NCBI RefSeq assembly: GCF_000018105.1
Contig: NC_009925.1
Location: forward strand, 4,320,001 to 4,352,000
Direction: 5' to 3'
From: Acaryochloris marina MBIC11017
GTDB lineage: Bacteria > Cyanobacteriota > Cyanobacteriia > Thermosynechococcales > Thermosynechococcaceae
DNA length: 32,000 bases
Part shown: piece by piece, positions 2,626-28,554 of the stretch
How positions within the stretch are numbered: the stretch's first letter is position 1
How the letters are laid out: the number at the start of each line of letters is the position of its first letter
Made by a program: the position numbers and the translations under genes
Notes under the pieces: generated by a model
Told to the model about the DNA's origin: nothing
Databases searched by the model: none
Seen by the model: only the letters and a program-made list of their open reading frames with translations

Positions 2626-4020
2626 CTAAATCTCATGCCCCTGGAGGGACATCAAATTATAGAGAGCCTGTAGCCGGGTTTTCGCGTTCAGTTTAACGAG
2701 GATATTGTTGATATGAAATTTAACCGTACTATCGCTGATAAAGAGCTGCTCAGCGATATCGCGATCACGAAAGCCCTGGACTAATAACGCCAGAACGTCT
2801 CTTTCACGGGCAGAAAGCTGCTGTTCGTCTTGATCTAGTCCCCAGGTTTCCCCTTGCATGACAGATACCACCGCTTCCCCTAATTGCTCAGCAGTGATGG
2901 AAAGCTGGAGGTTTGCCTTGGCGCTTTTGGGTGTTATGGCTGAGCTATGGCTGACCCAAAGCGCATAGTGACTGGTTTCGAGCAGGTCCACTTGATCCGT
3001 TAGAAGCGGGATTTTTGGATCGCTGCTGACGCAAACCTGTAATCCAGCTCCAGAGGCCAGGTGCATCAGTCCCGTTTGCACTAAGGGAGACGCACACTGG
3101 ATGCGCACACGAGTCTCTTGAACGGCTACAGGAAAGGTTAAGGCCACTTGAATGGCCTTGATATTAGGTTCTGAACTGATTTTGAAGATGCCATTAAAAC
3201 ATGACGCCATCAAAGATAAACGACCAAAGGTGGTTCGCTCCCAGGCGCTCCGTTCGGGGGAGACGGGGGCGGCAGCAATGGCTTCTAAGGTTACTGCATC
3301 TTCGCCGTAGGTCAGGCGGCAGTAGCTGCAATCGAGATCCTTAAGGGTTTCAGCAGTCCGCAAAAAGAGATGGGTTTTGGACACGTCTAGACATCGTTCT
3401 GTCCCCAACACCAATACGGTTGCTTGCCCTAAGATATGGGCCATCGCATCCGATAAAGACAGATTGGCCAAGATCCGTTGGGTGTCCATGCCTGGGGGCA
3501 CCTGCCGTTCTGACTGGTGCAGAGACGCCATTTCTAAAGCTACGGTCAGGGTGGTACAGAGACTGGATAAAATCTTCAGAAACTCTGGACGGATAGCGTC
3601 ATGACTAAATACCGCCAAGACACCAATCACCTTATCTCCATGGGCTAAGGGGTACCCTGCAAAGCCGTTGATATTGTTGGCGATGGCCCAATCTGGATTC
3701 CTTACCCAGGATTCCTTGGCCAAATTATTGCTCAGGAGAGAAACCCGATTTTGAGCAATTTTGCCAATCTTAAATTCCCCCATGGGAATGCGGCTGAATG
3801 TGCCGTCAGTGCGGGTATAGAGTCCAGAAGAAGCCACTAGTTTCAGCATCGTCTGATCCGGCTCCACCAGCCAGATGCGGGCAAAGGCACAGTTAAACTG
3901 TTCCACGAAGCCATCTGTGGCGAGACGGGCAATGGTCTCAGGGTCCAATGAGGTGGAAAATCCTAGCGCAACCTTATTGGCTTGCTCTAGGTCCCAGACC
4001 AATGTTGCATTTTCAAGCAT
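2626..4020 (-). CDS. LuxR-family transcriptional regulator with N-terminal GAF-like sensor domain
   Basis: C-terminal LSARERDVLALLVQGFRDRDIAEQLFISDSTVKFHINNILVKLN is a canonical LuxR/FixJ HTH. The N-terminal ~170 aa resemble a GAF domain (ARIWLVE...GKIAQ...GFAGYPL..GDKVIGVLAVFS). Confidence 0.85.
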   Translation of the reverse strand: MLENATLVWDLEQANKVALGFSTSLDPETIARLATDGFVEQFNCAFARIWLVEPDQTMLKLVASSGLYTRTDGTFSRIPMGEFKIGKIAQNRVSLLSNNLAKESWVRNPDWAIANNINGFAGYPLAHGDKVIGVLAVFSHDAIRPEFLKILSSLCTTLTVALEMASLHQSERQVPPGMDTQRILANLSLSDAMAHILGQATVLVLGTERCLDVSKTHLFLRTAETLKDLDCSYCRLTYGEDAVTLEAIAAAPVSPERSAWERTTFGRLSLMASCFNGIFKISSEPNIKAIQVALTFPVAVQETRVRIQCASPLVQTGLMHLASGAGLQVCVSSDPKIPLLTDQVDLLETSHYALWVSHSSAITPKSAKANLQLSITAEQLGEAVVSVMQGETWGLDQDEQQLSARERDVLALLVQGFRDRDIAEQLFISDSTVKFHINNILVKLNAKTRLQALYNLMSLQGHEI

Positions 4021-6604: not shown

Positions 6605-7456
6605 ATGGAGAAGATGGTTAACCACGCTGATAAAAAGTTGGGGTACAGGGTTGCCCGGTGTTTGGCGATCGCAAGTCTATCTGTAACCGCCATCCCCTGG
6701 GGCGAACTATCTGTTGCAGCCACTCCCCAATTGGCTCAGCAGACGGTTTCCCTGGCCCAGCCTTTTCAAGATCTCAAGGTCAACGGCTCGATTTTGATTT
6801 ACGACCTCAAACGCAACCGCACCTATCAGCACAATCCGGCTCGCAATACCCAGCCGTTTTTACCTGCATCCACCTTTAAGATCCTCAACTCCCTGATTGC
6901 CCTAGAAACAGGGGTGATTGCTAATGACCTTGCTATTCTGACCTGGGATGGGGTGGAACGCAGTTTCCCCACTTGGAATCGAGACCTGAATTTGCAAACC
7001 GCGTTTAAGGTATCGGCAGTCTGGTTCTACCAGGTATTAGCGCGTCGCATTGGCTTTCAGCGGATGCAGCAATGGGTGACTAAAGTCGGCTACGGCAATC
7101 AATCCATTGGCAAGGCCGATGAGATAGATACCTTTTGGCTGACGGGAGATTTACGGATTTCACCGACGGAACAGATTCAGTTCCTCCAGCGGTTGTATCG
7201 CAATGAACTCCCTTTTTCAGAATCTGCGATCGCAACGGTGAAACAGATCATGATTGTGGAGCAAACACCTGAGTACACCATCCGAGCGAAGACGGGTTGG
7301 GCACTTCAGCCTGGCATTGGTTGGTATGTGGGTTATGTCGAGCAAAATGACAATGTCTATTTCTTTGCCACCAATCTCGATATCGGTGATCAGAAAGATT
7401 TACCCGCTCGGGCAGAAGTAACGCGTCGCAGTTTGAAAGCTTTAAATCTGTTGTAG
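6605..7456 (+). CDS. class D (OXA-like) beta-lactamase
   Basis: All class D hallmark motifs occur in order: STFK (PASTFKILN), SxV (KVSAVWFYQ), YGN (GYGNQSIG), WL..DLRISPTEQIQFL, and KTG (AKTGWA). N-terminal signal-like segment. 283 aa. Confidence 0.85.
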   Translation: MEKMVNHADKKLGYRVARCLAIASLSVTAIPWGELSVAATPQLAQQTVSLAQPFQDLKVNGSILIYDLKRNRTYQHNPARNTQPFLPASTFKILNSLIALETGVIANDLAILTWDGVERSFPTWNRDLNLQTAFKVSAVWFYQVLARRIGFQRMQQWVTKVGYGNQSIGKADEIDTFWLTGDLRISPTEQIQFLQRLYRNELPFSESAIATVKQIMIVEQTPEYTIRAKTGWALQPGIGWYVGYVEQNDNVYFFATNLDIGDQKDLPARAEVTRRSLKALNLL

Positions 7457-7587: not shown

Positions 7588-9912
7588 CTATTGGAGGGCC
7601 TCATAGATGGCTACGATTTTCGAATGCGCGACAGCGAGATCATGCTGCCATTCTGCGTTAGATGGATCGGCTGAAGTCAGGTTCTGACAGATAGAGAGGT
7701 ATTCATTGAATGCTTGGAGTGCATCATCCAGTCGTCCTTTAGTTTGGTAGATGTCTCCGGTCTTCGAATACGCGACAGCGAGATCACTCTGCCATTCTGC
7801 GTTAGACGGATCGGCTGAAGTCAGATTCTGACAGATAGAGAGGTCTTCATTGAATGCTTGGAGTGCATCATCCAGTCGTCCTTTGGTTTGGTAGATGTCT
7901 CCGGTCCTCGAATATGCGACACCGAGTTCACGCTGCCATTCTGCGTTAGACGGATCGGCTGAAGTCAGATTCTGACAGATAGAGAGGTATTCATTGAATG
8001 CTTGGAGCGCATCATCCAGTCGTCCTTTAGTTTGGTAGATGTCTCCGATCTTCGAATACGCGATGCCGAGTTCACGCTGCCATGCTGCGTTAGACGGATC
8101 GGCCGAAGTCAGATTCTGACAGATAGAGAGGTATTCATTGAATGCTTGGAGTGCATCATCTAGTCGTCCTTTAGTTTGGTAGATGTCTCCGGTCCTCGAA
8201 TATGCGATGCCGAGTTCACGTTGCCATGCTGCGTTAGATGGATCGGCTGAAGTCAGGTTCTGACAGATAGAGAGGTATTCATTGAATGCTTGGAGCGCAT
8301 CATCCAGTCGTCTTTTGGTTTGGTAGATGTCTCCGATCTTCGAATATGCGACACCGAGTTCACGCTGCCATTCTGCGTTAGACGGATCGGCTGAAGTCAG
8401 GTTCTGAAAGATAGAGAGGTATTCATTGAATGCTTGGAGTGCATCATCTAGTCGTCCTTTGGTTTGGTAGATGTCTCCGGTCCTCGCATGCGCGACAGCG
8501 AGATCACTTTGCCATGCTGCGTTAGACGGATCGGCTGAAGTCAGGTTCTGACAGATAGAGAGGTCTTCATTGAATGCTTGGAGTGCATCATCCAGTCGTC
8601 CTTTGGTTTGGTAAATGTCTCCGGTCCTCGAATATGCGACACCGAGTTCACGCTGCCATGCTGCGTTAGACGGATCGGCTGAAGTCAGATTCTGACAGAT
8701 AGAGAGGTCTTCATTGAATGCTTGGAGTGCATCATCCAGTCGTCCTTTAGTTTGGTAGATGTCTCCAGTCCTCGAATACGCGATGCCGAGTTCACGTTGC
8801 CATGCTGCGTTAGACGGATCGGCTGAAGTCAGGTTCTGACAGATAGAGAGGTATTCATTGAATGCTTGGAGTGCATCATCCAGTCGTCCTTTGGTTTGGT
8901 AGATGTCTCCGGTCTTCGAATATGCGACACCGAGTTCACGCTGCCATGCTGCGTTAGACGGATCGGCTGAAGTCAGATTCTGACAGATAAAGAGGTATTC
9001 ATTGAATGCTTGGAGTGCATCATCCAGTCGTCCTTTGGTTTGGTAGATGTCTCCGGTCCTCGCATGTGCGACAGCGAGATCACTTTGCCATGCTGCGTTA
9101 GATGGATCGGCTGAAGTCAGGTTCTGACAGATAGAGAGGTATTCATTGAATGCTTGGAGTGCATCATCCAGTCGTCCTTTAGTTTGGTAGATGTCTCCTA
9201 GAAGGCGCTGTGCCCGGGCAATCCCCGATTGATGGGATGCTGCATGAGCAAGATTCACAACTTGAAGCGCTTGATCCTCAAGTTGGGCGGTGTCCCCGCG
9301 CAAACTGCGAACTTCAAAAGTAGCTAGTAGTGCTTCCACTCGGGCTTTTCCTTTGAGCCAGCCGGCATTAGCTAGTTCCTCCAGAGCTAGGGAGAGTGCA
9401 GTAGTATTCTCAGGCTGCATAGAGCATGTGATTTCCTGAGTTAGCAGTTCGCATTCGGCTGCAGCAGCTATTTGATCGGTTGCAAACAAGTGGTAGAGTG
9501 CTTCGATCCGAGCATGAACTTCTGTACGCTCGTTTAAGTAATTCCGAGCATTGGTGGACAACAAAAGCCAGCGAGCGGGATCTGTCTTCCGCAAATAATC
9601 CCGCAAGGTAAGGCGAGCAGACTCGTGGACATTCACGGCTTTCTCGCCCCGGGCAGGAAAGGGTTCAATAACAGTGAGTTTGCGCAAAGAATTGAATAAG
9701 ATGTCTCCCTGATCGGGTGTTGTGTCCAGCACAGCCACAAGGAGGTCGCAATCGCACCAGTGTGGTATGGCAGCAGCGATTAATGCCTTTTTAATTGATA
9801 GGCGCCGTGATTCAGAAAGCGGGGAATGGGCTAAATCGACACTAGCAAGAACAAGGGCTGCTGGGTCACCTTTTGCGTTTTGGAGAATACGGAGTCGTTC
9901 AGTGAAATCCAT
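7588..9912 (-). CDS. STAND-type winged-helix/helical domain plus TPR-repeat protein (11 x 48-aa repeats)
   Basis: 774 aa. N-terminal ~230 aa are helical and include a winged-helix-like LRKLTVIEPF....VNVHESARLTLRDYL. These are followed by 11 tandem near-identical 48-aa TPR-like units (GDIYQTKGRLDDALQAFNEYLSICQNLTSADPSNAAWQRELGVAYSR). Confidence 0.9.
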   Translation of the reverse strand: MDFTERLRILQNAKGDPAALVLASVDLAHSPLSESRRLSIKKALIAAAIPHWCDCDLLVAVLDTTPDQGDILFNSLRKLTVIEPFPARGEKAVNVHESARLTLRDYLRKTDPARWLLLSTNARNYLNERTEVHARIEALYHLFATDQIAAAAECELLTQEITCSMQPENTTALSLALEELANAGWLKGKARVEALLATFEVRSLRGDTAQLEDQALQVVNLAHAASHQSGIARAQRLLGDIYQTKGRLDDALQAFNEYLSICQNLTSADPSNAAWQSDLAVAHARTGDIYQTKGRLDDALQAFNEYLFICQNLTSADPSNAAWQRELGVAYSKTGDIYQTKGRLDDALQAFNEYLSICQNLTSADPSNAAWQRELGIAYSRTGDIYQTKGRLDDALQAFNEDLSICQNLTSADPSNAAWQRELGVAYSRTGDIYQTKGRLDDALQAFNEDLSICQNLTSADPSNAAWQSDLAVAHARTGDIYQTKGRLDDALQAFNEYLSIFQNLTSADPSNAEWQRELGVAYSKIGDIYQTKRRLDDALQAFNEYLSICQNLTSADPSNAAWQRELGIAYSRTGDIYQTKGRLDDALQAFNEYLSICQNLTSADPSNAAWQRELGIAYSKIGDIYQTKGRLDDALQAFNEYLSICQNLTSADPSNAEWQRELGVAYSRTGDIYQTKGRLDDALQAFNEDLSICQNLTSADPSNAEWQSDLAVAYSKTGDIYQTKGRLDDALQAFNEYLSICQNLTSADPSNAEWQHDLAVAHSKIVAIYEALQ
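7618..9201 (-). repeat. 11 tandem 144-bp coding repeats (48 aa each) inside the TPR gene
   Basis: Period measured directly: attcattgaa at 7701 versus cttcattgaa at 7845, and gtcgtccttt at 7731 versus 7875, both 144 bp apart. Eleven GDIYQTK units in the translation give 11 x 144 = 1584 bp. Confidence 0.95.
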
Positions 9913-9917
9913 TGGCT

Positions 9918-11039
9918 TTAATCCGAAGGCCCTAACAGTTGGGCAAGTGTTGTACTCTTGCCTTTAGAGTACTGATGGGCTGTGCGAACAAACTCAAGCT
10001 GGAGGCCCGGTTCGTAGGTCTGACCGTACTCAAACCATTCTTCAGGTGTAGGTAAGCTGAGCTCTATGGGTGAGATACTTGCTTCATCCCACGGTTCTCC
10101 GTGCACCTTCAGTGTATGTTGACCAACTACGATAACACGTAGCCAAGTTTCGCGAATGATCGAAAGGAGTAGACTTTGTTGCATCCAGGCCTCTGCTTCG
10201 CCAGCCATCTCAAACGTGTCGAAAATAAGGAGGGTGGGACGCGCAATCTTTTGGAGGGAAGTAAAAATTTGAGAAAGTTGACTAACAACCCTACCAGATG
10301 GGGCCTCAATCTTGAGGTTCTGAGCAAAAATCCGCAGTTCCGTGTCTATGTCTGTAGAACCTTTGAAGTCTAGACGTCCGCAAGTTAATCCCGGAATTTT
10401 AAATGCATTTCGGAGAAACTGCTTTGTTAAGTGGGTCTTACCTATTTCTGTCGGACCGTAGATTGGAAGTATTCTGAATGGTGCTCTATGCGTAATTAGC
10501 TTTGCAAAAGCAAGCTTCGCTTCACGATGATTTGCCACAGGCCAGTCAAGCGTAGGGGTGATATCAGGCCAACCCAGATCTTTAGAGTTTGTCGAAAGAT
10601 AGTACTCCTTCTTACGCCCTTCATTAATCGCAAGGCGACTGAGAATAAGTACAGCTGTTTCTTCAGGTGTCTTATCATCCAGATCAACAAAACCTGCAAG
10701 ACCAAACAATCCTGTAGGTTCGCAGTTGCCAAAGCGTAAGAGCATAACTTCTTCATTTTTACGCTGCATGAGAACACTATAAATAGCATTCCACTCAAGG
10801 CCGCACCACTTTTTCTCGTTGTAGTTATTGCATAGGATAGCAACGACCAGATCGGCTTCCTTCTCATAAAGCGAGGGAAGATAAAAGGCAAGATCGCTAC
10901 GGGCAAATTCTCCCTCGTGAAATTTATCGTAAAGAAGTTGTTCTTTGCTGAAGCGATCTGCAAGAAAGTTTGCTATTCGGGCAACAAAATCTCTGTTTTC
11001 TCCTGCAAATGAAAATGCGATGCGAAAACGTTTTTGCAT
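9918..11039 (-). CDS. TIR domain + P-loop (STAND/AAA-like) NTPase protein
   Basis: N-terminal bacterial TIR signature (RIAFSFAGENRDFV...LVVAILCNNYNEKKWCGLEWNAI, candidate catalytic Glu at residue 82). Walker A GPTEIGKT at residues 195-202 and Walker B LLIFDTFE at 270-277. 373 aa. Ends 5 nt before the TPR gene start. Confidence 0.85.
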   Translation of the reverse strand: MQKRFRIAFSFAGENRDFVARIANFLADRFSKEQLLYDKFHEGEFARSDLAFYLPSLYEKEADLVVAILCNNYNEKKWCGLEWNAIYSVLMQRKNEEVMLLRFGNCEPTGLFGLAGFVDLDDKTPEETAVLILSRLAINEGRKKEYYLSTNSKDLGWPDITPTLDWPVANHREAKLAFAKLITHRAPFRILPIYGPTEIGKTHLTKQFLRNAFKIPGLTCGRLDFKGSTDIDTELRIFAQNLKIEAPSGRVVSQLSQIFTSLQKIARPTLLIFDTFEMAGEAEAWMQQSLLLSIIRETWLRVIVVGQHTLKVHGEPWDEASISPIELSLPTPEEWFEYGQTYEPGLQLEFVRTAHQYSKGKSTTLAQLLGPSD

Positions 11040-11395
11040 TTTAACTGAACTCTAATTGGTGTCGGTGCATAACGATGGCGTCCCAGTTTTTAGAATAATG
11101 CAGCATTTTGACTTGCCTTTTCCACTTCGAATAAGTTTAACTCGGTTGAGGTAGGTTAAGTAACTGTATCTGTCAGCCAAAAACGGCATGGAGTTGTAGT
11201 TGTAGTTCTCACCTTAATAGCTGTGGTTTCTGGAGATGCAATTAATTCACCTACTCATCAAATATTGTTATACATTCACATACGCAGATAAAGACTTGCA
11301 AGAGAATCGAGATATTCCTTTGGGAGAAAATCAGGGATTGCCCGAGATTAATTTTTGGAAATGGATCAATAATTCTGGAGTGTACGCAACAGCTA

Positions 11396-21194: not shown

Positions 21195-22595
21195 ATGTCA
21201 GCTAACAACGATATGTTTGAGCAATCCCATCGCCAGGCCGGAGATCTTATCGCGGAGCGATACCGCCTCCTTTCTGTACTCGGTAAAGGAGGGGCTGGCA
21301 TTACCTATGCCGCAGAAGATATTTATACCCAACAGGAGTTTGCCCTCAAAGAACTATCCCTAAAGGGCATGGGGGATTGGAAACAGCTAGAACTGTTTGA
21401 ACGCGAAGCCAAGGTTTTGTCTCAACTCAATCATCCAGCCATCCCCAACTATATCGACTACTTTCAAACCGATACTGAAGAAGATCGGTGGTTCTATATC
21501 GTTCAGGAATTAGCCCCCGGTCAGTCCCTAGCCGACTTGGTGAAAGAAGGATGGCGGGCTAGCCAAGCTGAAGTGCGTCAGTTAGCCTTACAAATTCTGG
21601 ACATTCTGAAATACTTACATGAGCTAACCCCACCGATTATTCATCGGGATATTAAGCCACAAAATATTATCCGCAGTGAAGAGGGTCAGATTTACCTGGT
21701 GGACTTCGGTGCTGTCCAAAATGTCTATCACAACACGATGGTGGGCAGTACAGTGGTGGGGACCTACGGCTATATGGCCCCTGAGCATTTCCGGGGGAAA
21801 GCGGTTCCCGCCACCGACTTGTACTCTCTCGGAGCAACGCTGCTGTTTTTGCTCACCCACTGTTCCCCTGCTGACTTGCCGCAAAAGCGACTCAAGATAG
21901 ATTTTCGTGCTGCGGTGCAGCTCAAGCCAGACTTTGCGGACTGGCTCGATCAACTGCTGGAACCTGCCGTGGAGGATCGGTTGGCCTCGGCCCAAGACGC
22001 GATTGACGCGCTTAAAGCACCGCCACGACGGGCGCAGTCTACATCTATTACCCCACCCAAAGCCAAAGCCCTGCAGCGAAAACCGATGGGCAGTAAGGTA
22101 AATCTACAACGCACAAGGACCCATCTAAACATTGACATTCCCCCCATTGGCTTACGGGGAGAAACTTTGGGGATTGGCTGTTTTGCTGTGTTTTGGAATG
22201 GGTTTATTTTTGTGTGGACTGCGGGTGCGCTTGCGGCTGGCGCTCCTTTTATCTTTCCCTTATTTTCCATTCCGTTTTGGATTGTTGGTCTTGGTATGGC
22301 GGGAGCGGCCATCTTTGGGATGGCTGGACGAACGCACCTAGAAATTAATCCGCAAACCTTTGAGTTAGTTTGGCAAGTCAAGTCTTTAGGATTCCGATAT
22401 CGTCGCAGTGGACGCACAGAAGATATTGAAGGCATTAAGCTCACGGTTGCCTATACCAGTAATGATCGCCCGGTTAAGGGCTGTACCCTATTGGAAGGCG
22501 TTAACACCCATCGATTTGGTACCATGCTCAGCCCTAGTGAAAAAGGATGGTTAGTGGATGAAATTGGTGATTTTTTAATGTCACAGCAACACTGA
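21195..22595 (+). CDS. Ser/Thr protein kinase with C-terminal TM-hairpin module (paralog 1, subtype A)
   Basis: GKGGAG (GxGxxG), FALKEL Lys, LFEREA Glu, HRDIKPQN, DFG, GTYGYMAPE. Two predicted TM helices at about residues 324-377. GAGG Shine-Dalgarno site. Confidence 0.92.
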   Translation: MSANNDMFEQSHRQAGDLIAERYRLLSVLGKGGAGITYAAEDIYTQQEFALKELSLKGMGDWKQLELFEREAKVLSQLNHPAIPNYIDYFQTDTEEDRWFYIVQELAPGQSLADLVKEGWRASQAEVRQLALQILDILKYLHELTPPIIHRDIKPQNIIRSEEGQIYLVDFGAVQNVYHNTMVGSTVVGTYGYMAPEHFRGKAVPATDLYSLGATLLFLLTHCSPADLPQKRLKIDFRAAVQLKPDFADWLDQLLEPAVEDRLASAQDAIDALKAPPRRAQSTSITPPKAKALQRKPMGSKVNLQRTRTHLNIDIPPIGLRGETLGIGCFAVFWNGFIFVWTAGALAAGAPFIFPLFSIPFWIVGLGMAGAAIFGMAGRTHLEINPQTFELVWQVKSLGFRYRRSGRTEDIEGIKLTVAYTSNDRPVKGCTLLEGVNTHRFGTMLSPSEKGWLVDEIGDFLMSQQH

Positions 22596-22689
22596 GCTGT
22601 TGCTTAGGAACTGCTAACCGACCCAGGCCACTATTCTCTCAATCAAGGTAAGACACAATGGAGATATCTCGTTTAGGACAAGTAACTCC

Positions 22690-24069
22690 ATGCTTGAGCC
22701 GATGTCTCACCAAATTGGAGATCTGATTGCTGGAAGGTATCGCGTGCAATCCATCTTGGGACAGGGTGGTACGGGTATAACCTTTGCTGTGAAAAATGTT
22801 TACAATTACCAGCATTATGCACTCAAAGCATTGTCTCTTAAAGGAATCCAAGAGTGGAAACAGTTAGAACTGTTTGAGCGAGAAGCTAAAGTTCTATCTC
22901 AACTGAATCATCCAGCGATTCCGAACTACATTGACTACTTCCAAATCGATATTGAAGCGGATCGGTGGTTTAATATTGTTCAAGAACTGGCACCAGGCAA
23001 ATCTCTCGCAGATTGGGTGAAAGATGGATGGAACCCTAGCCAAGAAAAAGTGCGTTGTTTGGCATTTCAAATTCTGGATATCCTGAAATATCTACATGAA
23101 CTAACACCACCGATTATTCATCGGGACATTAAACCGCAAAACATTATCCGCAGTGACAAAGGTCAGATTTACTTAGTGGACTTTGGTGCTGTGCAAAATG
23201 TCTATCAAAGCACGATGATGGGCAGTACGGTGGTGGGCACTTATGGTTACATGGCTCCTGAACATTCTCAAGGGAAAGTTGTGCCTGCCACCGACTTATA
23301 TTCTCTAGGGGCAACGCTGTTATTTTTGCTCACCCATTGTTCCCCTACCGATTTACCTCAAAAAAGGTTGAAGATTGATTTTCGCTCTACTGTCCAACTT
23401 GAACCTCAGTTTGCTGATTGGCTCGACCTGATGCTAGAGCCTGCTATAGAAGATCGCTTAGACTCTGCTCAAGCAGCGATTGACGTTCTTCCAGTTCTAC
23501 GACGCGTTTCTCCCTTATCAATTGCCCCACCCAAAGCCATCGCTCCTCCTCGGCAACCAATGGGGAGCAGGGTCAAGTTAAAAAGAACAAGAACCCACCT
23601 TGTACTTGAAATCCCCCCTGCAGGTTTAAAGTTTGAAACCGTTGGATTGGGCTGTTTTGCCCTATTTTGGAATGGGCTAATTCTTCTTTGGACTTTAGGT
23701 GCCGTGGCTGTTGGTGGTTCTTTCATTATTCCCTTATTGTCTATCCCGTTTGGACTTATGGGTATTGTGATGGCCGGAGCTGCACTCTATGGGATGGCAG
23801 GATGCGAACGTCTAGAAATTAGTCCCCAAACCTTTGAATTGGTCTGGCAAGTGGCGACATTCAGACTTCGATATCGTCGTAGTGGTCGAACAGCTGACAT
23901 CGATGGTATTAAGCTGACAACGACCCATACCAGAAATAATCGCCCTGTTAAAGGCTGCACTTTGCTAGAAGGTGCTAACGCACACATATTTGGCATTATG
24001 CTCAGTCCTCGTGAAAAAGTATGGCTAGTTGCGGAAATTGGTGACTTTTTAACGTCACGGCAACAATAA
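22690..24069 (+). CDS. Ser/Thr protein kinase with C-terminal TM-hairpin module (paralog 2, subtype A)
   Basis: Same motif set (GQGGTG, YALKAL, HRDIKPQN, DFG, MAPE) and the same C-terminal module. Confidence 0.92.
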   Translation: MLEPMSHQIGDLIAGRYRVQSILGQGGTGITFAVKNVYNYQHYALKALSLKGIQEWKQLELFEREAKVLSQLNHPAIPNYIDYFQIDIEADRWFNIVQELAPGKSLADWVKDGWNPSQEKVRCLAFQILDILKYLHELTPPIIHRDIKPQNIIRSDKGQIYLVDFGAVQNVYQSTMMGSTVVGTYGYMAPEHSQGKVVPATDLYSLGATLLFLLTHCSPTDLPQKRLKIDFRSTVQLEPQFADWLDLMLEPAIEDRLDSAQAAIDVLPVLRRVSPLSIAPPKAIAPPRQPMGSRVKLKRTRTHLVLEIPPAGLKFETVGLGCFALFWNGLILLWTLGAVAVGGSFIIPLLSIPFGLMGIVMAGAALYGMAGCERLEISPQTFELVWQVATFRLRYRRSGRTADIDGIKLTTTHTRNNRPVKGCTLLEGANAHIFGIMLSPREKVWLVAEIGDFLTSRQQ

Positions 24070-24159
24070 ATTAGGAAATCATGCAAACAGAGTTAGCATG
24101 ATTTTGAACGGGCGAAGGTGAAGGTTAGGAGTAAGCCAGAATGATAGGGCACTTCTTTG

Positions 24160-25536
24160 ATGACCTATTTCGTGTTTGAGAACCTACCTCACCAAGCTGG
24201 AGATTTAGTTGCAGAACGATATCGCTTAATATCTGTGCTGGGTCAAGGTGGATTTGGAGTAACTTACACAGCTGAAGATATTGATACTCACCAACAATTC
24301 GCTATCAAGCAAATGTCTTTAAAGGGCATGACCAATTGGAAGCAATTGGAATTATTTGAGCGAGAGGCACAAGTCTTATCTCAACTGGAACATCCAGCTA
24401 TTCCCAATTACATTGATTATTTTCAAACCGATACTGAAGGAGATCGTTATTACTATATTGTTCAAGAGCTAGCGTCAGGTAAATCTCTGGCAGAATTAGT
24501 TGGTCAAGGCTGGCAAGCCACCCAAGTAGAAGTAAAACAGATAGCCTTGCAGGTTTTGGAAGTTTTGAAGTACCTGCACGCGTTAACACCCCCGATCATT
24601 CATCGAGACATTAAACCCCAAAATATCATTCGAAATGATGATGGCCAGATATATCTAGTTGATTTTGGTGCTGTGCAAAATGTCTATCACAGCACGATGA
24701 TGGGTAGCACAGTGGTGGGTACTTATGGTTACATGGCGCCTGAACATTTCCAAGGGAAGGCTATCCCTGCGACCGACCTTTATTCTCTGGGGGCAACGTT
24801 GCTGTTTTTACTCACCCATTGCTCTCCTGCTGATTTACCTCGAAAACGTCTGAAAATTGATTTTGGCTCAGTTGTAAAGCTTGACCCTGCCTTTGCCGAT
24901 TGGCTTGATCTTATGCTGGAGCCAGTGGTCGAGGATCGTTTCTGCTCAGCTCAGGACGCCATCTCAGTTCTATTACAGCCAACAGTCAGTCGCTCTCTTG
25001 CTGGTGATGTAGCACAAACCATTCAGCAGCCACCTGGCAGCAAAATTAATTTGTATAAGACGAAAACTTCGGTGACCATTCATATCCCACCAGTTGGCTT
25101 GCCCTGGAAATCTGTTCAACAAAAGTGTTTGAAGCTTTGGTTTGATTTGTTAATGCTAATTATCTTGTTAATGCTACTTGAACATATTATGCCCCCGCTT
25201 GTTTTAGGGGGTGTATCCATTATTAGCGGGATGATTTGGGTTGGAATGATGGCTTCTGTGTTGTTTGATATTGTTGGACATACTCATCTCAAGATTGATC
25301 CAAAGCATTTTCGTTTGCTCTGGAGGTTAAAGTTCCCAGGTCTTAAGTATGTTCGTGGAGGGCGCACTGCAGATTTGATAAGAGTTAAGTGTATAACGAC
25401 CTCAAGAAGTAAGGCCAAATACTGCGCTCTTATCACTAAAGGTAATCAATATAATTTTGGAATGCAGCTTAGCTCTAGCGAAAAGAACTGGTTAGTGAAA
25501 GAAATAGGTGATTTTTTGATATCTCAACAGAACTGA
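24160..25536 (+). CDS. Ser/Thr protein kinase with C-terminal TM-hairpin module (paralog 3, subtype B)
   Basis: GQGGFG, FAIKQM, HRDIKPQN, DFG, MAPE. C-terminal module of the variant type (HTHLKIDPKHFRLLW..KYCALIT). ATG at 24160; a TTG lies at 24157. Confidence 0.9.
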   Translation: MTYFVFENLPHQAGDLVAERYRLISVLGQGGFGVTYTAEDIDTHQQFAIKQMSLKGMTNWKQLELFEREAQVLSQLEHPAIPNYIDYFQTDTEGDRYYYIVQELASGKSLAELVGQGWQATQVEVKQIALQVLEVLKYLHALTPPIIHRDIKPQNIIRNDDGQIYLVDFGAVQNVYHSTMMGSTVVGTYGYMAPEHFQGKAIPATDLYSLGATLLFLLTHCSPADLPRKRLKIDFGSVVKLDPAFADWLDLMLEPVVEDRFCSAQDAISVLLQPTVSRSLAGDVAQTIQQPPGSKINLYKTKTSVTIHIPPVGLPWKSVQQKCLKLWFDLLMLIILLMLLEHIMPPLVLGGVSIISGMIWVGMMASVLFDIVGHTHLKIDPKHFRLLWRLKFPGLKYVRGGRTADLIRVKCITTSRSKAKYCALITKGNQYNFGMQLSSSEKNWLVKEIGDFLISQQN

Positions 25537-25628
25537 ACGATGGACTGGAGAACGGCTGATTGCTCTAGATTCTCCATCTATGCCAAGGTACAAGACACAG
25601 CAGAATTGCGTTTCTAATGTAGCGCTTC

Positions 25629-27002
25629 ATGAGCATGAAGATTTCACATCCGATGGGTGACCTTATCGCTGAAAGGTATCGTGTGCGATCCGTTTTAGGG
25701 CAAGGTGGTGCTGGTATCACCTTTGCCGTGGAGGATGTTCATACTCACCAGTCTTATGCCCTTAAAGTCTTGTCTCTCAAAGGGATTCAGGATTGGAAAC
25801 AGCTAGAACTGTTTGAACGAGAAGCCAAGACGCTATCACAGCTGGATCATCCGGCCATTCCCAATTACATTGATTACTTTCAAGCTGATACCGCAGGCAA
25901 TCGGTGGTTTTATATTGTTCAAGAATTAGTTCCTGGCCACTCCCTCGCAGAACTTGTGCAGCAAGGATGGCGGGCAAACCAGACTGAAGTGCGTCAATTA
26001 GCTTTGCAGATTCTGGACATTCTGAAATATTTACATGAGCTGACCCCACCGATTATTCATCGAGATATTAAGCCGCAAAATATTATCCGTAATGGCGACG
26101 GCCAGATTTACTTGGTGGACTTTGGTGCTGTACAAAACGTCTATCACAACACGATGGTGGGCAGTACGGTGGTGGGCACCTATGGCTATATGGCTCCAGA
26201 GCATTTTCAAGGAAAGGCAGTGCCTGCGACCGACCTCTATTCTCTGGGGGCAACGCTGCTATTCTTGCTCACTCATTGTTCTCCCGCTGATTTACCTCAA
26301 AAACGTCTAAAAATTGACTTTCGCTCCGTCGTTCATCTTGAACCTGCTTTTGCGGATTGGCTGGATCAAATGTTGGAGCCTGCTCTAGAAGATCGGTTTG
26401 TTTCGGCCCGGGATGCGATGGATGGGCTTACTGCTCCACCCCGACGAGTGAAGCCACCTGCCAAGCCTCGCTCTCGGACTCCACGTCGGCAACCGAGGGG
26501 TAGTAAGGTTACCTTGAAACGGACAGAGACTCAGCTAATTGTTGATATTCCTCCCACTGGTTTGCGAGTACAAACGTTAGGGATGGGTTGCTTTGTGGTG
26601 TTTTGGAATGGGGGTGTTTTAGCTGGGACTTTCGCGTGTTTTGCAGTGGGTAATTTTGCCATTCTCCCTTTTTTCATTCCATTTTGGATTATGGGGAGTA
26701 TTTTAGTTGGTCTGACCCTCTGTGGGATAGCTAGCAGTACCCATCTAGAAATTAATCCTCTAACCTTTGAATTAGTCTGGCAAATCAAGTCTTTAGGGCT
26801 TCGATATCGTCGTAGTGGACGCACGTTGGAGATCAAACAAGTAAAACGAACGGATGCCTACAACATTAATGATCGCCCTGTGCAGGGGTGCACTCTCTTG
26901 GAAGGTTCTAAAAAACATAAATTTGGGACCATGCTGAGCCCTAGTGAACAAGCATGGCTCATGGAAGAAATTAGTGACTTTTTGAGATTGCGAAACCGCT
27001 GA
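25629..27002 (+). CDS. Ser/Thr protein kinase with C-terminal TM-hairpin module (paralog 4, subtype A)
   Basis: GQGGAG, YALKVL, HRDIKPQN, DFG, MAPE. Subtype A C-terminal module. Confidence 0.92.
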   Translation: MSMKISHPMGDLIAERYRVRSVLGQGGAGITFAVEDVHTHQSYALKVLSLKGIQDWKQLELFEREAKTLSQLDHPAIPNYIDYFQADTAGNRWFYIVQELVPGHSLAELVQQGWRANQTEVRQLALQILDILKYLHELTPPIIHRDIKPQNIIRNGDGQIYLVDFGAVQNVYHNTMVGSTVVGTYGYMAPEHFQGKAVPATDLYSLGATLLFLLTHCSPADLPQKRLKIDFRSVVHLEPAFADWLDQMLEPALEDRFVSARDAMDGLTAPPRRVKPPAKPRSRTPRRQPRGSKVTLKRTETQLIVDIPPTGLRVQTLGMGCFVVFWNGGVLAGTFACFAVGNFAILPFFIPFWIMGSILVGLTLCGIASSTHLEINPLTFELVWQIKSLGLRYRRSGRTLEIKQVKRTDAYNINDRPVQGCTLLEGSKKHKFGTMLSPSEQAWLMEEISDFLRLRNR

Positions 27003-27097
27003 CCAATTTGCTTGAAAAGGACTGATTGCGCCAGATCACCAACTTATTATTTGGGGCAAGACACAATGGAAGCATTGCGTTGTTACCCTAGCGCTTC

Positions 27098-28462: not shown

Positions 28463-28554
28463 TCCTGGCTCGGCCCAGCGGGTTGTGCTAGATCACCCAC
28501 CGCTCTTGTGGGGCAAGCCACAATAAAGACAGCCCATTACCTATAAGGCAGCTC

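What the first reader, a model, noticed from the sequence alone, without database searches (positions are those of the whole stretch)
7588..11039. TIR + P-loop NTPase and winged-helix + TPR proteins: an NLR/STAND-like module split across two adjacent genes
The upstream gene (9918..11039) encodes a bacterial TIR domain. It has the FSFAGE.RD start and a WCxxE motif with a candidate catalytic Glu82 (codon 10794-10796). The TIR domain is fused to a compact P-loop NTPase with Walker A GPTEIGKT and Walker B LLIFDTFE.

The downstream gene starts 5 nt later. It opens with a helical, winged-helix-like segment (LRKLTVIEPF...VNVHESARLTLRDYL) of the kind that normally follows the nucleotide-binding domain in STAND ATPases. 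It then continues into 11 TPR-like repeats.

Together the two genes reconstruct the effector, NTPase switch and repeat-sensor logic of Avs/bacterial NLR-like antiphage proteins, with TIR as a probable NAD+-consuming effector. The break falls inside the STAND module, which is unusual. By eye the TIR gene is more AT-rich than its surroundings, and I found no HIP1 site between 7588 and 11400, which is consistent with horizontal acquisition.
Basis: partly seen in the sequence, partly recalled or inferred. Interest (0 to 1): 0.8.

Follow-up and report, generated by a model that had tools for sequence, protein, structure and literature searches.

The report
Two-gene split TIR NLR-like immune sensor
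Two tightly linked cyanobacterial genes together look like one NLR-type immune switch (a TIR enzyme, an ATPase and a repeat sensor) that has been permanently cut in two at its hinge, an arrangement kept in every related genome examined.

Summary
geneA (9918-11039, minus strand, 373 aa) is a TIR domain with an invariant candidate catalytic Glu82, followed by a P-loop NTPase with invariant Walker A and B residues. geneB (7588-9912, minus strand, 774 aa) starts 5 nt downstream. It has a non-TPR head and then eleven near-identical 48-aa TPR units.

The split-STAND reading is supported. geneA's NTPase aligns colinearly with the nucleotide-binding and first helical domains of single-chain TIR-STAND-TPR proteins that carry the same TIR subtype, and it ends at their GxP helix. 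A confident model (pLDDT 94) gives geneB's head a winged-helix topology followed by an invariant His. The pair is obligate: 7 of 7 genome loci and 78 of 78 evaluable metagenome loci keep both genes adjacent, none is fused, and the two genes co-diverge (r = 0.885). Some family members carry SEFIR instead of TIR.

Two points are weaker. The winged-helix homology is not significant by sequence.

The most likely function is an NLR/Avs-like, NAD+-consuming conflict system rebuilt from two proteins. No PADLOC model covers it and no paper found analyses it. I rate it a new variant of a known kind.

The parts
11040..11395 (-). AT-rich upstream intergenic region (GC 0.385), the presumed promoter region of the two-gene operon
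   Evidence: There is only one weak sigma-70-like match at 11065-11038. A promoter is inferred, not shown.
9918..11039 (-). geneA: TIR-NTPase protein, 373 aa including the stop codon
   Evidence: ORF. It is 100% identical to an Acaryochloris marina 'TIR domain-containing protein'. It has 320 homologues, and nearly all of the 120 listed are about 375 aa.
10620..11039 (-). TIR domain (residues 1-140), starting 'FSFAGExRDF'
   Evidence: Pfam TIR_2 at 40.9 bits, above the cut-off of 28. AF2 gives a beta-alpha fold. Foldseek matches RPP1 (TIR plus NB-ARC) and the AbTir TIR domain 7uxu_A (TMt 0.64).
10794..10796 (-). Codon of Glu82, the candidate catalytic Glu in 'WCGLEW'
   Evidence: W78, G80, E82 and W83 are invariant in 29 homologues. 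The resemblance to the plant TIR 'SxWCLxEL' catalytic motif is from my own knowledge.
10065..10544 (-). P-loop nucleotide-binding domain (residues ~166-325). It includes a degenerate 'VA[DN]HxEA' pre-Walker motif and the sensor-1-position strand 'RVIVVGQ' (Q307 invariant).
   Evidence: strands E190-194, E219-224, E269-274, E300-306.
10434..10457 (-). Walker A, GPTEIGKT (residues 195-202)
   Evidence: G195, G200 and K201 are invariant. It aligns to GPGGMGKT of the single-chain STAND family.
10209..10232 (-). Walker B, LLIFDTFE (residues 270-277)
   Evidence: D274 and E277 are invariant. It aligns to LLLLDNLE of the single-chain family, sharing the pattern D-x-h-E.
9921..10064 (-). Helical lid / HD1-like domain (residues 326-373) ending in the GxP-type helix 'GKSTTLAQLLGP'. 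The protein stops here.
   Evidence: Helices H332-340, H348-358 and H362-369. It aligns to 'GGKPLLLRW' of the single-chain family.
9913..9917 (-). 5-nt spacer between the geneA stop (TAA, 9918-9920) and the geneB start (ATG, 9910-9912)
   Evidence: Homologous junctions in genome loci have gaps of 2-9 nt, in mixed reading frames. Translational coupling is inferred.
7588..9912 (-). geneB: winged-helix-like head plus TPR sensor protein, 774 aa including the stop codon
   Evidence: ORF. A homologue lies immediately downstream of every geneA homologue examined.
9823..9912 (-). Two N-terminal helices (residues 1-30, 'LRILQxAxGDPAxLxLA'). They may be the last HD1 helix and the connector.
   Evidence: H3-12 and H17-28. 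They align by position to the segment directly after the GxP helix of single-chain STANDs (not significant). That they complete HD1 in trans is inference.
9583..9822 (-). Winged-helix-like domain (residues 31-110): alpha1, beta1, alpha2, alpha3, beta-hairpin wing, then a helix. Invariant motifs are 'PHWxD' and 'ExFxARG...NVHExxRLxxR'.
   Evidence: AF2 pLDDT 94: H34-47, strand at 53, H55-62, H66-76, E82-84, E93-95, H97-110. Invariant residues. No significant sequence match to known winged-helix domains.
9625..9627 (-). Codon of His96 (in 'NVHE'), a candidate counterpart of the STAND/NB-ARC 'MHD' His
   Evidence: Invariant in 30 diverse homologues. It lies immediately after the wing hairpin. Contact with the nucleotide is inferred.
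9217..9582 (-). Helical linker / irregular TPR-like region (residues 111-232)
   Evidence: Helices H112-224 in the model. Conserved across the family.
7633..9216 (-). Eleven tandem 48-aa (144-bp) TPR units (residues 233-760). Amino-acid variation is confined to unit positions 1, 3-6, 26, 42, 45, 46 and 48, apart from three single-unit substitutions (14, 28, 30).
   Evidence: TRF 7620-9198, 11.0 copies, 93% match. Per-codon analysis gives pooled pN/pS of 0.42. Units are on average 88% identical at the amino-acid level. Pfam TPR_12 and TPR_2.

Best explanation
geneA and geneB encode the two halves of one STAND (NLR-like) molecular switch that is permanently split at the hinge between the first helical domain (HD1) and the winged-helix domain.

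What each gene supplies:
- geneA supplies the effector and the motor: an N-terminal TIR domain with Glu82 as the likely NAD+-cleaving residue, a P-loop nucleotide-binding domain, and the HD1 lid, which ends at the GxP-type helix.
- geneB supplies the regulatory and sensing half: a winged-helix-like domain with an invariant His96, a helical linker, and a variable array of 48-aa TPR units.

Proposed mechanism (inferred):
1. The genes are co-transcribed and probably translationally coupled (5-nt gap). The products associate non-covalently, so geneB's winged helix packs on geneA's nucleotide-binding domain and holds it in an inactive, ADP-bound state.
2. A ligand, most plausibly a phage or other invader protein, binds the TPR array and displaces or re-orients the winged helix.
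3. This allows nucleotide exchange, oligomerisation of the NTPase and clustering of the TIR domains.
4. The clustered TIR domains then hydrolyse NAD+, causing growth arrest or abortive infection, or make an ADPR-derived product.

Shown here:
- Domain identities and motif conservation.
- Colinearity of geneA with single-chain relatives.
- The predicted topology of geneB's head.
- Obligate adjacency, absence of fusions, co-divergence, and swapping of the effector domain.

Inferred:
- Physical A:B complex formation.
- The role of His96.
- The trigger.
- NADase activity and an immune role.
For: 1. Domains and motifs. TIR_2 scores above its cut-off and the P-loop matches are to STAND-type families. 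E82, G195/G200/K201 and D274/E277 are invariant.

2. Colinearity with single-chain relatives. About 70 genome loci carry the same TIR subtype (40-70% identity), most of them (about 40) at the N-terminus of roughly 800-aa proteins with AAA_16/NB-ARC and TPR domains. The geneA profile aligns to them from Walker A through Walker B and the sensor-1 strand to the GxP helix, then ends. For the NTPase part alone hhalign gives E = 2.7e-5 and 7.8e-6.

3. Structure. The geneA model (pLDDT 85.7) has the plant TIR-NLR RPP1 as its best PDB match (E = 4e-8), and also matches the ZAR1 and wheat resistosomes and ORC/Cdc6 AAA+ proteins. The geneB(1-330) model (pLDDT 94, pTM 0.86) shows a winged-helix topology followed by invariant His96 and then TPR helices. 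A STAND-TPR crystal structure (6mfv) is among its top hits (E = 8.7e-4, 442 aligned columns).

4. Junction test. A concatenated A+B profile aligns through the junction onto the winged-helix and repeat region of the single-chain family (370 columns). All 6 reversed or shuffled controls stop at 118-119 columns.

5. Linkage. All 7 genome loci from five or more phyla, and all 78 evaluable metagenome loci found through geneB, have geneA directly upstream. None is fused. No third gene is conserved. Distances for the A NTPase and the B head correlate at r = 0.885 (Mantel 0/2000).

6. geneB's head is always N-terminal. In the roughly 110 of the 150 listed cluster representatives that matched through the head domain, it starts at or near residue 1 and is never preceded by an NTPase.

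7. Effector swapping, as is typical of conflict systems. Some family members carry SEFIR or a canonical TIR_2 instead. The SEFIR versions match the PADLOC bSEFIR defence model in the SEFIR domain (102, 50 and 35 bits).

8. Variable sensor. geneB lengths run from about 180 to 1126 aa in loci and up to 1849 aa in the representative search. The 48-aa repeats are internally homogenised with site-restricted variability, as described for fungal NLR repeat domains (PMC4986451).
Against: - The geneB head has no significant sequence or profile similarity to any known winged-helix domain or to the winged-helix region of the single-chain family (hhalign E = 0.13-0.6; PDB hmmsearch E >= 0.36; no Pfam hit).
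- In the concatenation test the alignment lengthened but the score did not rise (51.4 against 51.2-51.4).
- Foldseek hits for geneB are dominated by generic TPR proteins.
- geneA's NTPase departs from STAND consensus. It has His in place of the Arg of hhGRExE, Gln307 in place of the sensor-1 Arg, and Walker B D-T-F-E. Its structural neighbours include general AAA+/ORC proteins as well as NLRs.
- No complex model, nucleotide-binding data or NADase data exist.
- No PADLOC defence model matches geneA or geneB beyond TPR.
- The window is not an obvious defence island. The neighbours are an S9 peptidase, a class D beta-lactamase-like gene, pheT and a GGDEF gene.
- No relatives were found in viral contigs, and plasmids hold only TIR-domain matches.
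Confidence: 0.62

Rival explanations
1. geneA is a self-contained TIR plus AAA+/ORC-Cdc6-like ATPase. geneB is only a dedicated TPR adaptor or scaffold whose N-terminal domain is a family-specific docking module, not the missing winged-helix domain of a STAND unit. The pair would still work together, but it would not be a split NLR.
For: The geneB head has no significant sequence link to known winged-helix domains. geneA's structural neighbours include many non-STAND AAA+ proteins such as p97, ORC, Cdc6 and RFC. geneA lacks the canonical sensor-1 Arg and the hhGRExE Arg.
Against: ORC/Cdc6 and STAND ATPases are all followed by a winged helix, and geneA has none of its own. geneB supplies a confidently predicted winged-helix topology at exactly the colinear position. 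The best structural match of geneA is a TIR-NLR. The nearest relatives of its TIR domain are fused to NB-ARC/AAA_16-TPR proteins. Both families share the Walker B pattern D-x-h-E.
Confidence: 0.2
2. The pair is a non-immune signal-transduction or developmental switch, like MalT, AfsR or GutR-type STAND regulators. It would respond to an endogenous metabolite or protein, with TIR acting as a signalling or scaffolding domain and not as a suicide NADase.
For: The window is not a defence island. There are no PADLOC hits and no phage or plasmid association. The same TIR subtype is also fused to a response-regulator/LuxR protein (L026).
Against: The candidate catalytic Glu is invariant. TIR is exchanged for SEFIR domains that match a validated defence family. 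The repeat array is hypervariable and homogenised, as in NLR sensors. The phyletic distribution is patchy at 50-65% identity across unrelated phyla.
Confidence: 0.1
3. The system is Thoeris-like. geneA's TIR makes a diffusible ADPR-derived signal, and geneB's TPRs receive it or regulate its production. This would be analogous to BcTir/BcTpr or the TPR-containing effector ThsI.
For: TIR-plus-TPR two-gene systems with signalling roles exist (10.1101/2023.05.26.542521; 10.64898/2025.12.03.692087).
Against: geneB has no effector or glycosidase domain. It consists only of the winged-helix-like head and TPRs. BcTpr's N-terminus is a MilB-like glycosidase and BcTir lacks an NTPase. There are no PADLOC Thoeris hits. 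No third gene is conserved.
Confidence: 0.05
4. The split is an artefact: a recently pseudogenised single-chain gene, a sequencing error, or a gene that is rejoined by programmed frameshifting or stop-codon read-through.
For: Several homologous junctions have gaps that are multiples of 3, so read-through would be in frame there.
Against: The split is present in all 85 evaluable loci across many phyla, each with its own ATG or GTG start. The relative frame is inconsistent: gaps of 5 and 2 nt are out of frame, and metagenome gaps of 1, 3, 6, 21 and 24 nt and overlaps occur. Nearly all of the 120 listed geneA homologues are about 375 aa. In the geneB-family members among the 150 listed representatives the head starts at or near residue 1. 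The identical gene pair occurs in an independent Acaryochloris assembly.
Confidence: 0.02

Closest known systems
Single-chain bacterial TIR-STAND(NB-ARC/AAA_16)-TPR proteins of ~800 aa (loci L008-L078; AP-ATPase-type TIR-NLR-like proteins)
   Same: The TIR subtype is the same (40-70% identity across the ~70 TIR-only loci). The order is the same: TIR, P-loop, helical lid with a GxP helix, winged helix, TPR. Both share the Walker B pattern D-x-h-E. In some members (for example L070) the repeats are of the 48-aa TPR type.
   Different: They are one polypeptide, whereas here the chain ends after the GxP helix and restarts as a second gene. The NTPase sequences are only remotely similar (hhalign E about 1e-5; no BLASTP hit). 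The sensor-1 Arg and the hhGRExE Arg are replaced by Gln and His.
Avs / AVAST antiviral STAND NTPases and bacterial NLR-like proteins (bNACHT, TIR-NLR)
   Same: The logic is the same: an N-terminal effector (TIR in some), a STAND switch and a C-terminal TPR-like sensor. Activation is expected to be by oligomerisation.
   Different: No PADLOC Avs or NLR model matches. The D[GAS]hDE NACHT signature is absent. The module is split over two genes. No experimental defence data exist.
Plant TIR-NLRs (RPP1, ROQ1)
   Same: RPP1 is the best structural match of geneA (7dfv_B, E = 4e-8, spanning TIR and NB-ARC). The catalytic-Glu motif is of the WCxxE type.
   Different: The plant proteins use LRR/C-JID sensors and are a single chain. 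Sequence identity is about 14%.
bSEFIR defence protein (PADLOC PDLC03957)
   Same: Members of the geneA family that carry SEFIR instead of TIR match its SEFIR domain strongly (102 bits).
   Different: The match covers only the SEFIR domain (profile positions ~36-189 of 412). The NTPase and the geneB partner are not part of bSEFIR. The window's own geneA has TIR, not SEFIR.
E. coli 'TIR-II' systems (Nat Commun 2024, PMC11350192)
   Same: This is a validated TIR+TPR anti-phage system. The authors remark that about 30% of relatives also have an ATPase domain and that TIR and TPR can lie on two proteins.
   Different: The remark is at domain level only and does not analyse where the split falls or whether it is conserved. 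Homology to geneA/geneB could not be tested because the sequences were not at hand.
BcTir/BcTpr two-gene system of Bacillus cereus (bioRxiv 10.1101/2023.05.26.542521)
   Same: It is a two-gene operon with a TIR protein and a TPR protein that form a complex and protect against phage.
   Different: BcTir has no NTPase. BcTpr's N-terminus is a MilB-like glycosidase that is itself the NADase. It has no winged helix and no STAND module.
Fungal NLRs with highly internally conserved TPR/ANK/WD repeats (PMC4986451)
   Same: The repeat units are near-identical (over 85% identity), repeat number varies, and variability is restricted to a few positions per unit.
   Different: The fungal proteins are single-chain eukaryotic NLRs with 42-aa TPR units. 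Positive selection was not demonstrated here (pooled pN/pS 0.42).

Membership tests
TIR domain NADases (TIR_2 / STIR superfamily) | Match to the TIR profile above the curated threshold | tested here: met
   PF13676 at 40.9 bits against a cut-off of 28. Structural match to the AbTir TIR domain and the RPP1 TIR.
TIR domain NADases (TIR_2 / STIR superfamily) | Conserved catalytic glutamate | tested here: met
   E82 in 'WCGLEW' is invariant in 29 of 29 homologues. Its catalytic role is inferred from its position.
TIR domain NADases (TIR_2 / STIR superfamily) | NAD+ hydrolase or cyclase activity | not testable with these tools
   This needs a biochemical assay.
STAND NTPases (Leipe et al. 2004) | P-loop NTPase with Walker A GxxxxGK[ST] and an acidic Walker B | tested here: met
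   GPTEIGKT and LLIFDTFE; G195, G200, K201, D274 and E277 are invariant.
STAND NTPases (Leipe et al. 2004) | Profile or structural similarity of the NTPase to STAND families | tested here: inconclusive
   Pfam STAND-type hits are all below their cut-offs (ATPase_2 22.6 against 33.2; AAA_16 18.8 against 32.6; NACHT 14.1 against 26.7). hhalign to a bona fide AAA_16/NB-ARC family gives E = 2.7e-5 to 7.8e-6 with probability 75-84%. The best PDB hit is RPP1, but generic AAA+ proteins are close behind.
STAND NTPases (Leipe et al. 2004) | hhGRExE motif before Walker A, and a sensor-1 Arg | tested here: not met
   The family has 'VA[DN]HxEA', with His in place of Arg, and an invariant Gln307 at the sensor-1 position.
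STAND NTPases (Leipe et al. 2004) | Helical domain with a GxP motif, followed by a winged-helix domain in the same polypeptide | tested here: not met
   geneA ends at the GxP-type helix. The winged-helix-like domain is encoded by geneB. This is the defining difference of this family.
STAND NTPases (Leipe et al. 2004) | Winged-helix domain homologous to STAND winged-helix domains, with a conserved His | tested here: inconclusive
   The topology alpha-beta-alpha-alpha-beta-beta with invariant His96 is predicted at pLDDT 94. Sequence-profile tests are not significant.
NACHT clade | Walker B signature D[GAS]hDE | tested here: not met
   The sequence is D-T-F-E-M. The signature is as defined in 10.1101/2022.07.19.500537.
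Avs/AVAST and other catalogued defence systems | Match to a PADLOC-DB model of the system | tested here: not met
   geneA's best hits are PDC-S01 (E = 0.004) and mad8 (0.005). geneB matches only the generic TPR model.
Avs/AVAST and other catalogued defence systems | Protection against phage, triggered by a phage protein | not testable with these tools
   This needs phage challenge experiments.
Thoeris | A ThsB-type TIR together with a signal-activated effector (SIR2/SLOG, Macro, TM and others) | tested here: not met
   No such effector is present. geneA and geneB are the only conserved genes. There are no PADLOC Thoeris hits.
BcTir/BcTpr | A TPR protein with an N-terminal MilB-like glycosidase, and a TIR protein without an NTPase | tested here: not met
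   geneB's head is helical with a wing hairpin. geneA carries an NTPase.

The most novel reading that the evidence does not exclude
The split is functional, not incidental. geneB would be a dissociable 'clamp and sensor' that supplies the winged-helix lock in trans. Activation would then occur by release or exchange of a subunit, not by the intramolecular domain rotation seen in all characterised NLRs. geneA alone would be a constitutively oligomerising, toxic TIR-ATPase, and geneB would act both as its antitoxin-like inhibitor and as the pathogen receptor. This would be a natural two-component NLR in which guard and executioner are separate proteins. It would also explain why the pair is never fused and why the TPR array can expand and contract freely.
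Probability: 0.25. Interest if true: 0.78.

Novelty: new variant of a known kind. Interest (0 to 1): 0.62.

Why it matters
All NLR/STAND immune switches characterised so far, in animals, plants, fungi and bacteria, are single chains. In them the winged-helix domain locks the nucleotide-binding domain until a ligand is sensed.

Here the chain is obligately broken at exactly that hinge, in a widespread family. It has hundreds of members in Cyanobacteria, Nitrospirota, Verrucomicrobiota, Proteobacteria and soil metagenomes.

This offers a natural system for studying autoinhibition, nucleotide exchange and oligomerisation with separable parts. It also points to an unannotated defence or conflict family that current catalogues such as PADLOC and Pfam do not cover. 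Finally, it shows that NLR sensors can evolve as independent genes with rapidly changing repeat number.

Tried and rejected
1. Concatenated A+B chain for structure prediction. I abandoned this and modelled the two proteins separately.

2. Sequence proof that geneB's head is a STAND winged helix. None of the tests was significant: hhalign against the single-chain family, a profile search of PDB sequences, and a Pfam scan of residues 1-130.

3. Exhaustive profile search with geneB's head, to find distant fused relatives. The profile picked up one TPR unit, so the list mixes family members with TPR-only hits. It showed that the head is always N-terminal, but it did not reach remote single-chain relatives.

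4. Horizontal transfer inferred from GC content and HIP1. Rejected as not significant.

5. Recent pseudogene or programmed recoding. Rejected on junction diversity and universal conservation.

6. A third conserved gene. None was found.

7. Phage or plasmid carriage. There were no relatives in viral contigs, and plasmids had only TIR-domain matches.

8. Weak RecA hits in the PDB sequence search. These are Walker-A-only similarity inflated by concatenated RecA chains, and I disregarded them.

9. Literature phrase searches for split or bipartite NLR/STAND. Nothing relevant was returned.

Full report
**1. What is in the sequence**

The window comes from an Acaryochloris-type cyanobacterium. geneA's product is 100% identical to an A. 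marina 'TIR domain-containing protein'. The same locus, with the same neighbours, occurs in assembly AP026075.1.

geneA is 9918-11039 on the minus strand (373 aa) and geneB is 7588-9912 on the minus strand (774 aa). The junction reads TAA, AGCCA, ATG.

- geneA matches Pfam TIR_2 above the curated cut-off (40.9 bits against 28, residues 7-126). Residues 170-310 give sub-threshold matches only to STAND/AAA-type P-loop families: ATPase_2, AAA_22, AAA_16 and NACHT.
- geneB has strong TPR matches (TPR_12 E = 4.5e-53). They derive from a 144-bp tandem array of 11.0 copies at 93% match, which is eleven 48-aa units.
- Its first ~230 residues match no Pfam family.
- PADLOC and NCBIfam give nothing specific.

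**2. Motif conservation**

geneA has 320 database homologues, and nearly all of the 120 listed are about 375 aa. So the short architecture is a family trait. In an alignment of 29 homologues at 48-65% identity, these residues are invariant:

- W78, G80, E82 and W83, where E82 is the candidate catalytic Glu;
- G195, G200 and K201 (Walker A);
- P268, T269, L270, L271, D274, F276 and E277 (Walker B);
- G306 and Q307, at the sensor-1 position.

The C-terminus is a conserved 'GKSxxLAQLLGP'.

geneB's head is also strongly conserved. 'PHWxD' and 'E83-x-F85-x-A87-R88-G89 ... N94-V95-H96-E97-x-x-R100-L101-x-x-R104' are invariant in 30 sequences that go down to 38% identity.

**3. Are the two genes a unit?**

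Yes.

- In a scan of one genome per species, every one of the 7 loci with a full-length geneA relative has a geneB relative directly downstream: 2-9 nt after the geneA stop codon in six, and overlapping the split geneA reading frame in the frameshifted L006 locus. These loci come from Burkholderiales, Nitrospirales, Vineibacter, Chthoniobacteraceae, Chthoniobacterales, an uncultured Verrucomicrobia MAG and Nitrococcus.
- In the reciprocal test, 80 metagenome loci were fetched with geneB's head. All 78 that had upstream DNA carry a geneA-type NTPase ORF immediately upstream, and none is fused.
- No third gene is conserved.
- Pairwise identities of the NTPase and of geneB's head correlate at r = 0.885, and 0 of 2000 Mantel permutations reached that value.
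- The exhaustive profile search listed 150 cluster representatives. In the roughly 110 that matched through the head domain, it starts at or near residue 1; the rest were TPR-only hits. Protein lengths run from about 300 to 1849 aa.
- The junction frames differ between loci: gaps of 9, 6, 6, 2, 6, 6 and 5 nt in genomes, with other values and overlaps in metagenomes. This rules out a recent nonsense mutation and a conserved recoding signal.

**4. Is it a split STAND module?**

Three lines of evidence bear on this.

(a) Single-chain relatives.
- About 70 other genome loci carry the same TIR subtype (40-70% identity), most of them (about 40) at the N-terminus of roughly 800-aa proteins.
- Their sequences show FFGRxxEL, GPGGMGKTSLA, LLLLDNLES, KAILTSRRR, GGKPLLLRW, a winged-helix-like segment and then TPRs. 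They hit AAA_16, NB-ARC and TPR families.
- The geneA profile aligns to this family colinearly and stops at the GxP helix, at about column 389 of 818.
- With the TIR domain removed the alignment is still significant: E = 2.7e-5, and E = 7.8e-6 with a 55-sequence profile. Walker A, Walker B (DTFE against DNLE), the sensor-1 strand and the GxP helix are all in register.
- geneB's head alone is not significantly similar to the family (E = 0.13-0.6).
- The best path nevertheless places it directly after the GxP helix. 'LRKLTVIEPF...NVHESARLTLRDYL' falls opposite 'LRTLANRSLVV...FALVPMVDDFLRR'.
- In a concatenated A+B profile the alignment runs through the junction (370 columns) only when the real geneB part is used. 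All 6 reversed or shuffled controls stop at 118-119 columns. The score does not increase, so I rate this as weak support.

(b) Structure.
- The geneA model has mean pLDDT 85.7. It shows a TIR fold, a disordered linker around residues 150-154, a five-stranded P-loop core and three C-terminal lid helices.
- Its best PDB match is the plant TIR-NLR RPP1 (E = 4e-8, 435 columns). It also matches the ZAR1 and wheat resistosomes and ORC/Cdc6/AAA+ proteins.
- The geneB(1-330) model has pLDDT 94 and pTM 0.86. It shows:
  - two N-terminal helices;
  - then H34-47, a strand at 53, H55-62, H66-76 and a hairpin at E82-84/E93-95, which is a winged-helix topology;
  - invariant His96 at the start of the next helix, the position of the 'MHD' His of NB-ARC proteins (that comparison is from my own knowledge);
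  - then TPR-like helices.
- Its PDB hits are mostly generic TPR proteins. A STAND-TPR crystal structure (6mfv) ranks ninth with 442 aligned columns.

(c) Completeness.
- geneA lacks any winged helix of its own, although STAND and ORC/Cdc6-type ATPases are followed by one (stated in 10.1101/2022.07.19.500537).

Together these lines support a break at the HD1/winged-helix boundary. geneA has only three lid helices. geneB's first helices may therefore complete the HD1 bundle in trans, but that is inference.

**5. Features typical of conflict systems**

- The N-terminal effector is exchanged within the geneA family. Six members checked carry SEFIR (24-45 bits against a cut-off of 23), others carry a canonical TIR_2 (63 and 117 bits), and two have unassigned N-termini.
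- The SEFIR versions match the PADLOC bSEFIR defence model within the SEFIR domain (102, 50 and 35 bits).
- The sensor is highly variable in length. Complete geneB ORFs run from about 180 to 1126 aa.
- The 48-aa period is found across the family, with internal identity from 18% to 89%. This Acaryochloris copy is the most homogenised, at mean 88% between units.
- Apart from three single-unit substitutions (positions 14, 28 and 30), amino-acid differences among its 11 units fall at positions 1, 3-6, 26, 42, 45, 46 and 48. Pooled pN/pS is 0.42, so this is site-restricted variation and positive selection is not shown.
- The pattern parallels the 'highly internally conserved' repeats of fungal NLRs (PMC4986451).

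**6. What is not supported**

  - geneA's GC (0.449; TIR part 0.42) lies within the spread of other ORFs in the window (0.41-0.54), and geneB's is average (0.497).
  - With 10 HIP1 sites in 32 kb, the probability of none in 3.45 kb is 0.34, and a 10.8-kb HIP1-free gap exists elsewhere.
- The patchy distribution across phyla at 50-65% identity is compatible with horizontal spread, but that is a separate argument.
- The locus is not in an obvious defence island.
- The family was not found in viral contigs, and only TIR-domain matches were found on plasmids.

**7. Mechanism**

The most likely mechanism is set out in the best explanation. geneA and geneB assemble into one NLR-like unit. geneB's winged helix would lock geneA's nucleotide-binding domain. 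Ligand binding to the TPR array would release the lock, and the NTPase would then oligomerise. The clustered TIR domains would consume NAD+.

- Shown: the anatomy, motif conservation, obligate linkage and co-divergence.
- Inferred: complex formation, nucleotide dependence, the trigger, NADase activity and an immune role.

The main rival is that geneB is a dedicated adaptor whose head is not homologous to STAND winged helices (confidence 0.2). Non-immune signalling (0.1), Thoeris-like signalling (0.05) and artefact or recoding (0.02) are less likely.

**8. Comparison with what is known**

- It works like single-chain TIR-STAND-TPR proteins, Avs/bNLR proteins and plant TNLs.
- It is not a member of NACHT, because the D[GAS]hDE signature is absent. 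It does not match any catalogued PADLOC system.
- It fails the STAND criterion of a contiguous NBD-HD-winged-helix unit. That failure is the point of interest.
- Papers found:
  - PMC11350192 remarks that relatives of E. coli 'TIR-II' can have an ATPase, and can have TIR and TPR on two proteins.
  - PMC13581612 mentions 'split proteins' in a methods section, for Avs7/Dsr1.
  - BcTir/BcTpr is a different system with a glycosidase-TPR protein and no NTPase.
- I found no analysis of a conserved fission at the HD1/winged-helix hinge. The library does not cover subscription-only papers.

**9. Verdict**

- The split-STAND interpretation is supported. The winged-helix homology rests on structure prediction, not on sequence statistics.
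- The horizontal-transfer argument is not supported.
- Novelty: a new variant of a known kind.
- Interest: 0.62. It is a natural, widespread two-piece NLR that current catalogues miss. It would let autoinhibition be studied in trans, but its function is not yet demonstrated.

Noticed in passing
window 21195-29976 (+), then 30150-31631 (+): There are six tandem Ser/Thr protein-kinase paralogues (466, 459, 459, 457, 454 and 473 aa; Pkinase at 136-153 bits each) in one orientation. They are followed by a GTPase (MMR_HSR1/Dynamin_N) plus DUF697 gene. This is a striking local kinase expansion unrelated to the finding.
   Followed up: partly
window 6605-7456 (+); L161 9584-11371: The class D beta-lactamase/transpeptidase-like gene convergent with geneB is intact in the window. 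In Acaryochloris assembly AP026075.1 it is interrupted by an IS630-family (DDE_3) transposase.
   Followed up: no
P0137 (304 aa, 2.4-kb JGI metagenome contig): This is a partial TIR_2 domain joined directly to a geneB-type head ('MNFAEQLRVLQ...NVHESARLALR') with no NTPase in between. It could be a deletion derivative, a chimeric contig, or a genuine TIR-winged-helix architecture.
   Followed up: partly
L021, L022, L026, L041/L042; L024, L027, L034: The same 'FSFAGE...WCGLEW' TIR subtype (50-68% identical) is also fused to NACHT plus FGE-sulfatase, to LRRs, to a response-regulator receiver plus LuxR HTH, and to an unknown 300-aa domain. Several genomes carry tandem duplicated TIR-STAND-TPR genes.
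   Followed up: partly
L162-L164 (Logan short-read contigs); geneB residue ~248 = window ~9170: The short-read contigs shown that carry geneA (L162-L164) all end 248 aa into geneB, where the near-identical 144-bp TPR units begin. Repeat-induced assembly breaks therefore make database geneB homologues look shorter than they are.
   Followed up: yes
L006 1851-2979 (Nitrococcus MAG): The geneA homologue is split into 264-aa and 88-aa pieces by a frameshift, while the downstream geneB homologue is intact. This is either a pseudogene or an assembly error.
   Followed up: no
L156 216-1364 and L159 173-1210: These geneA-family members have N-terminal ~150 residues that match neither TIR nor SEFIR nor any Pfam family. 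They may carry a further, unrecognised effector domain.
   Followed up: no
window 2626-4020 (-): A GAF plus LuxR-type (GerE) transcription regulator lies upstream in the window. No link to the geneA/geneB pair was seen.
   Followed up: no
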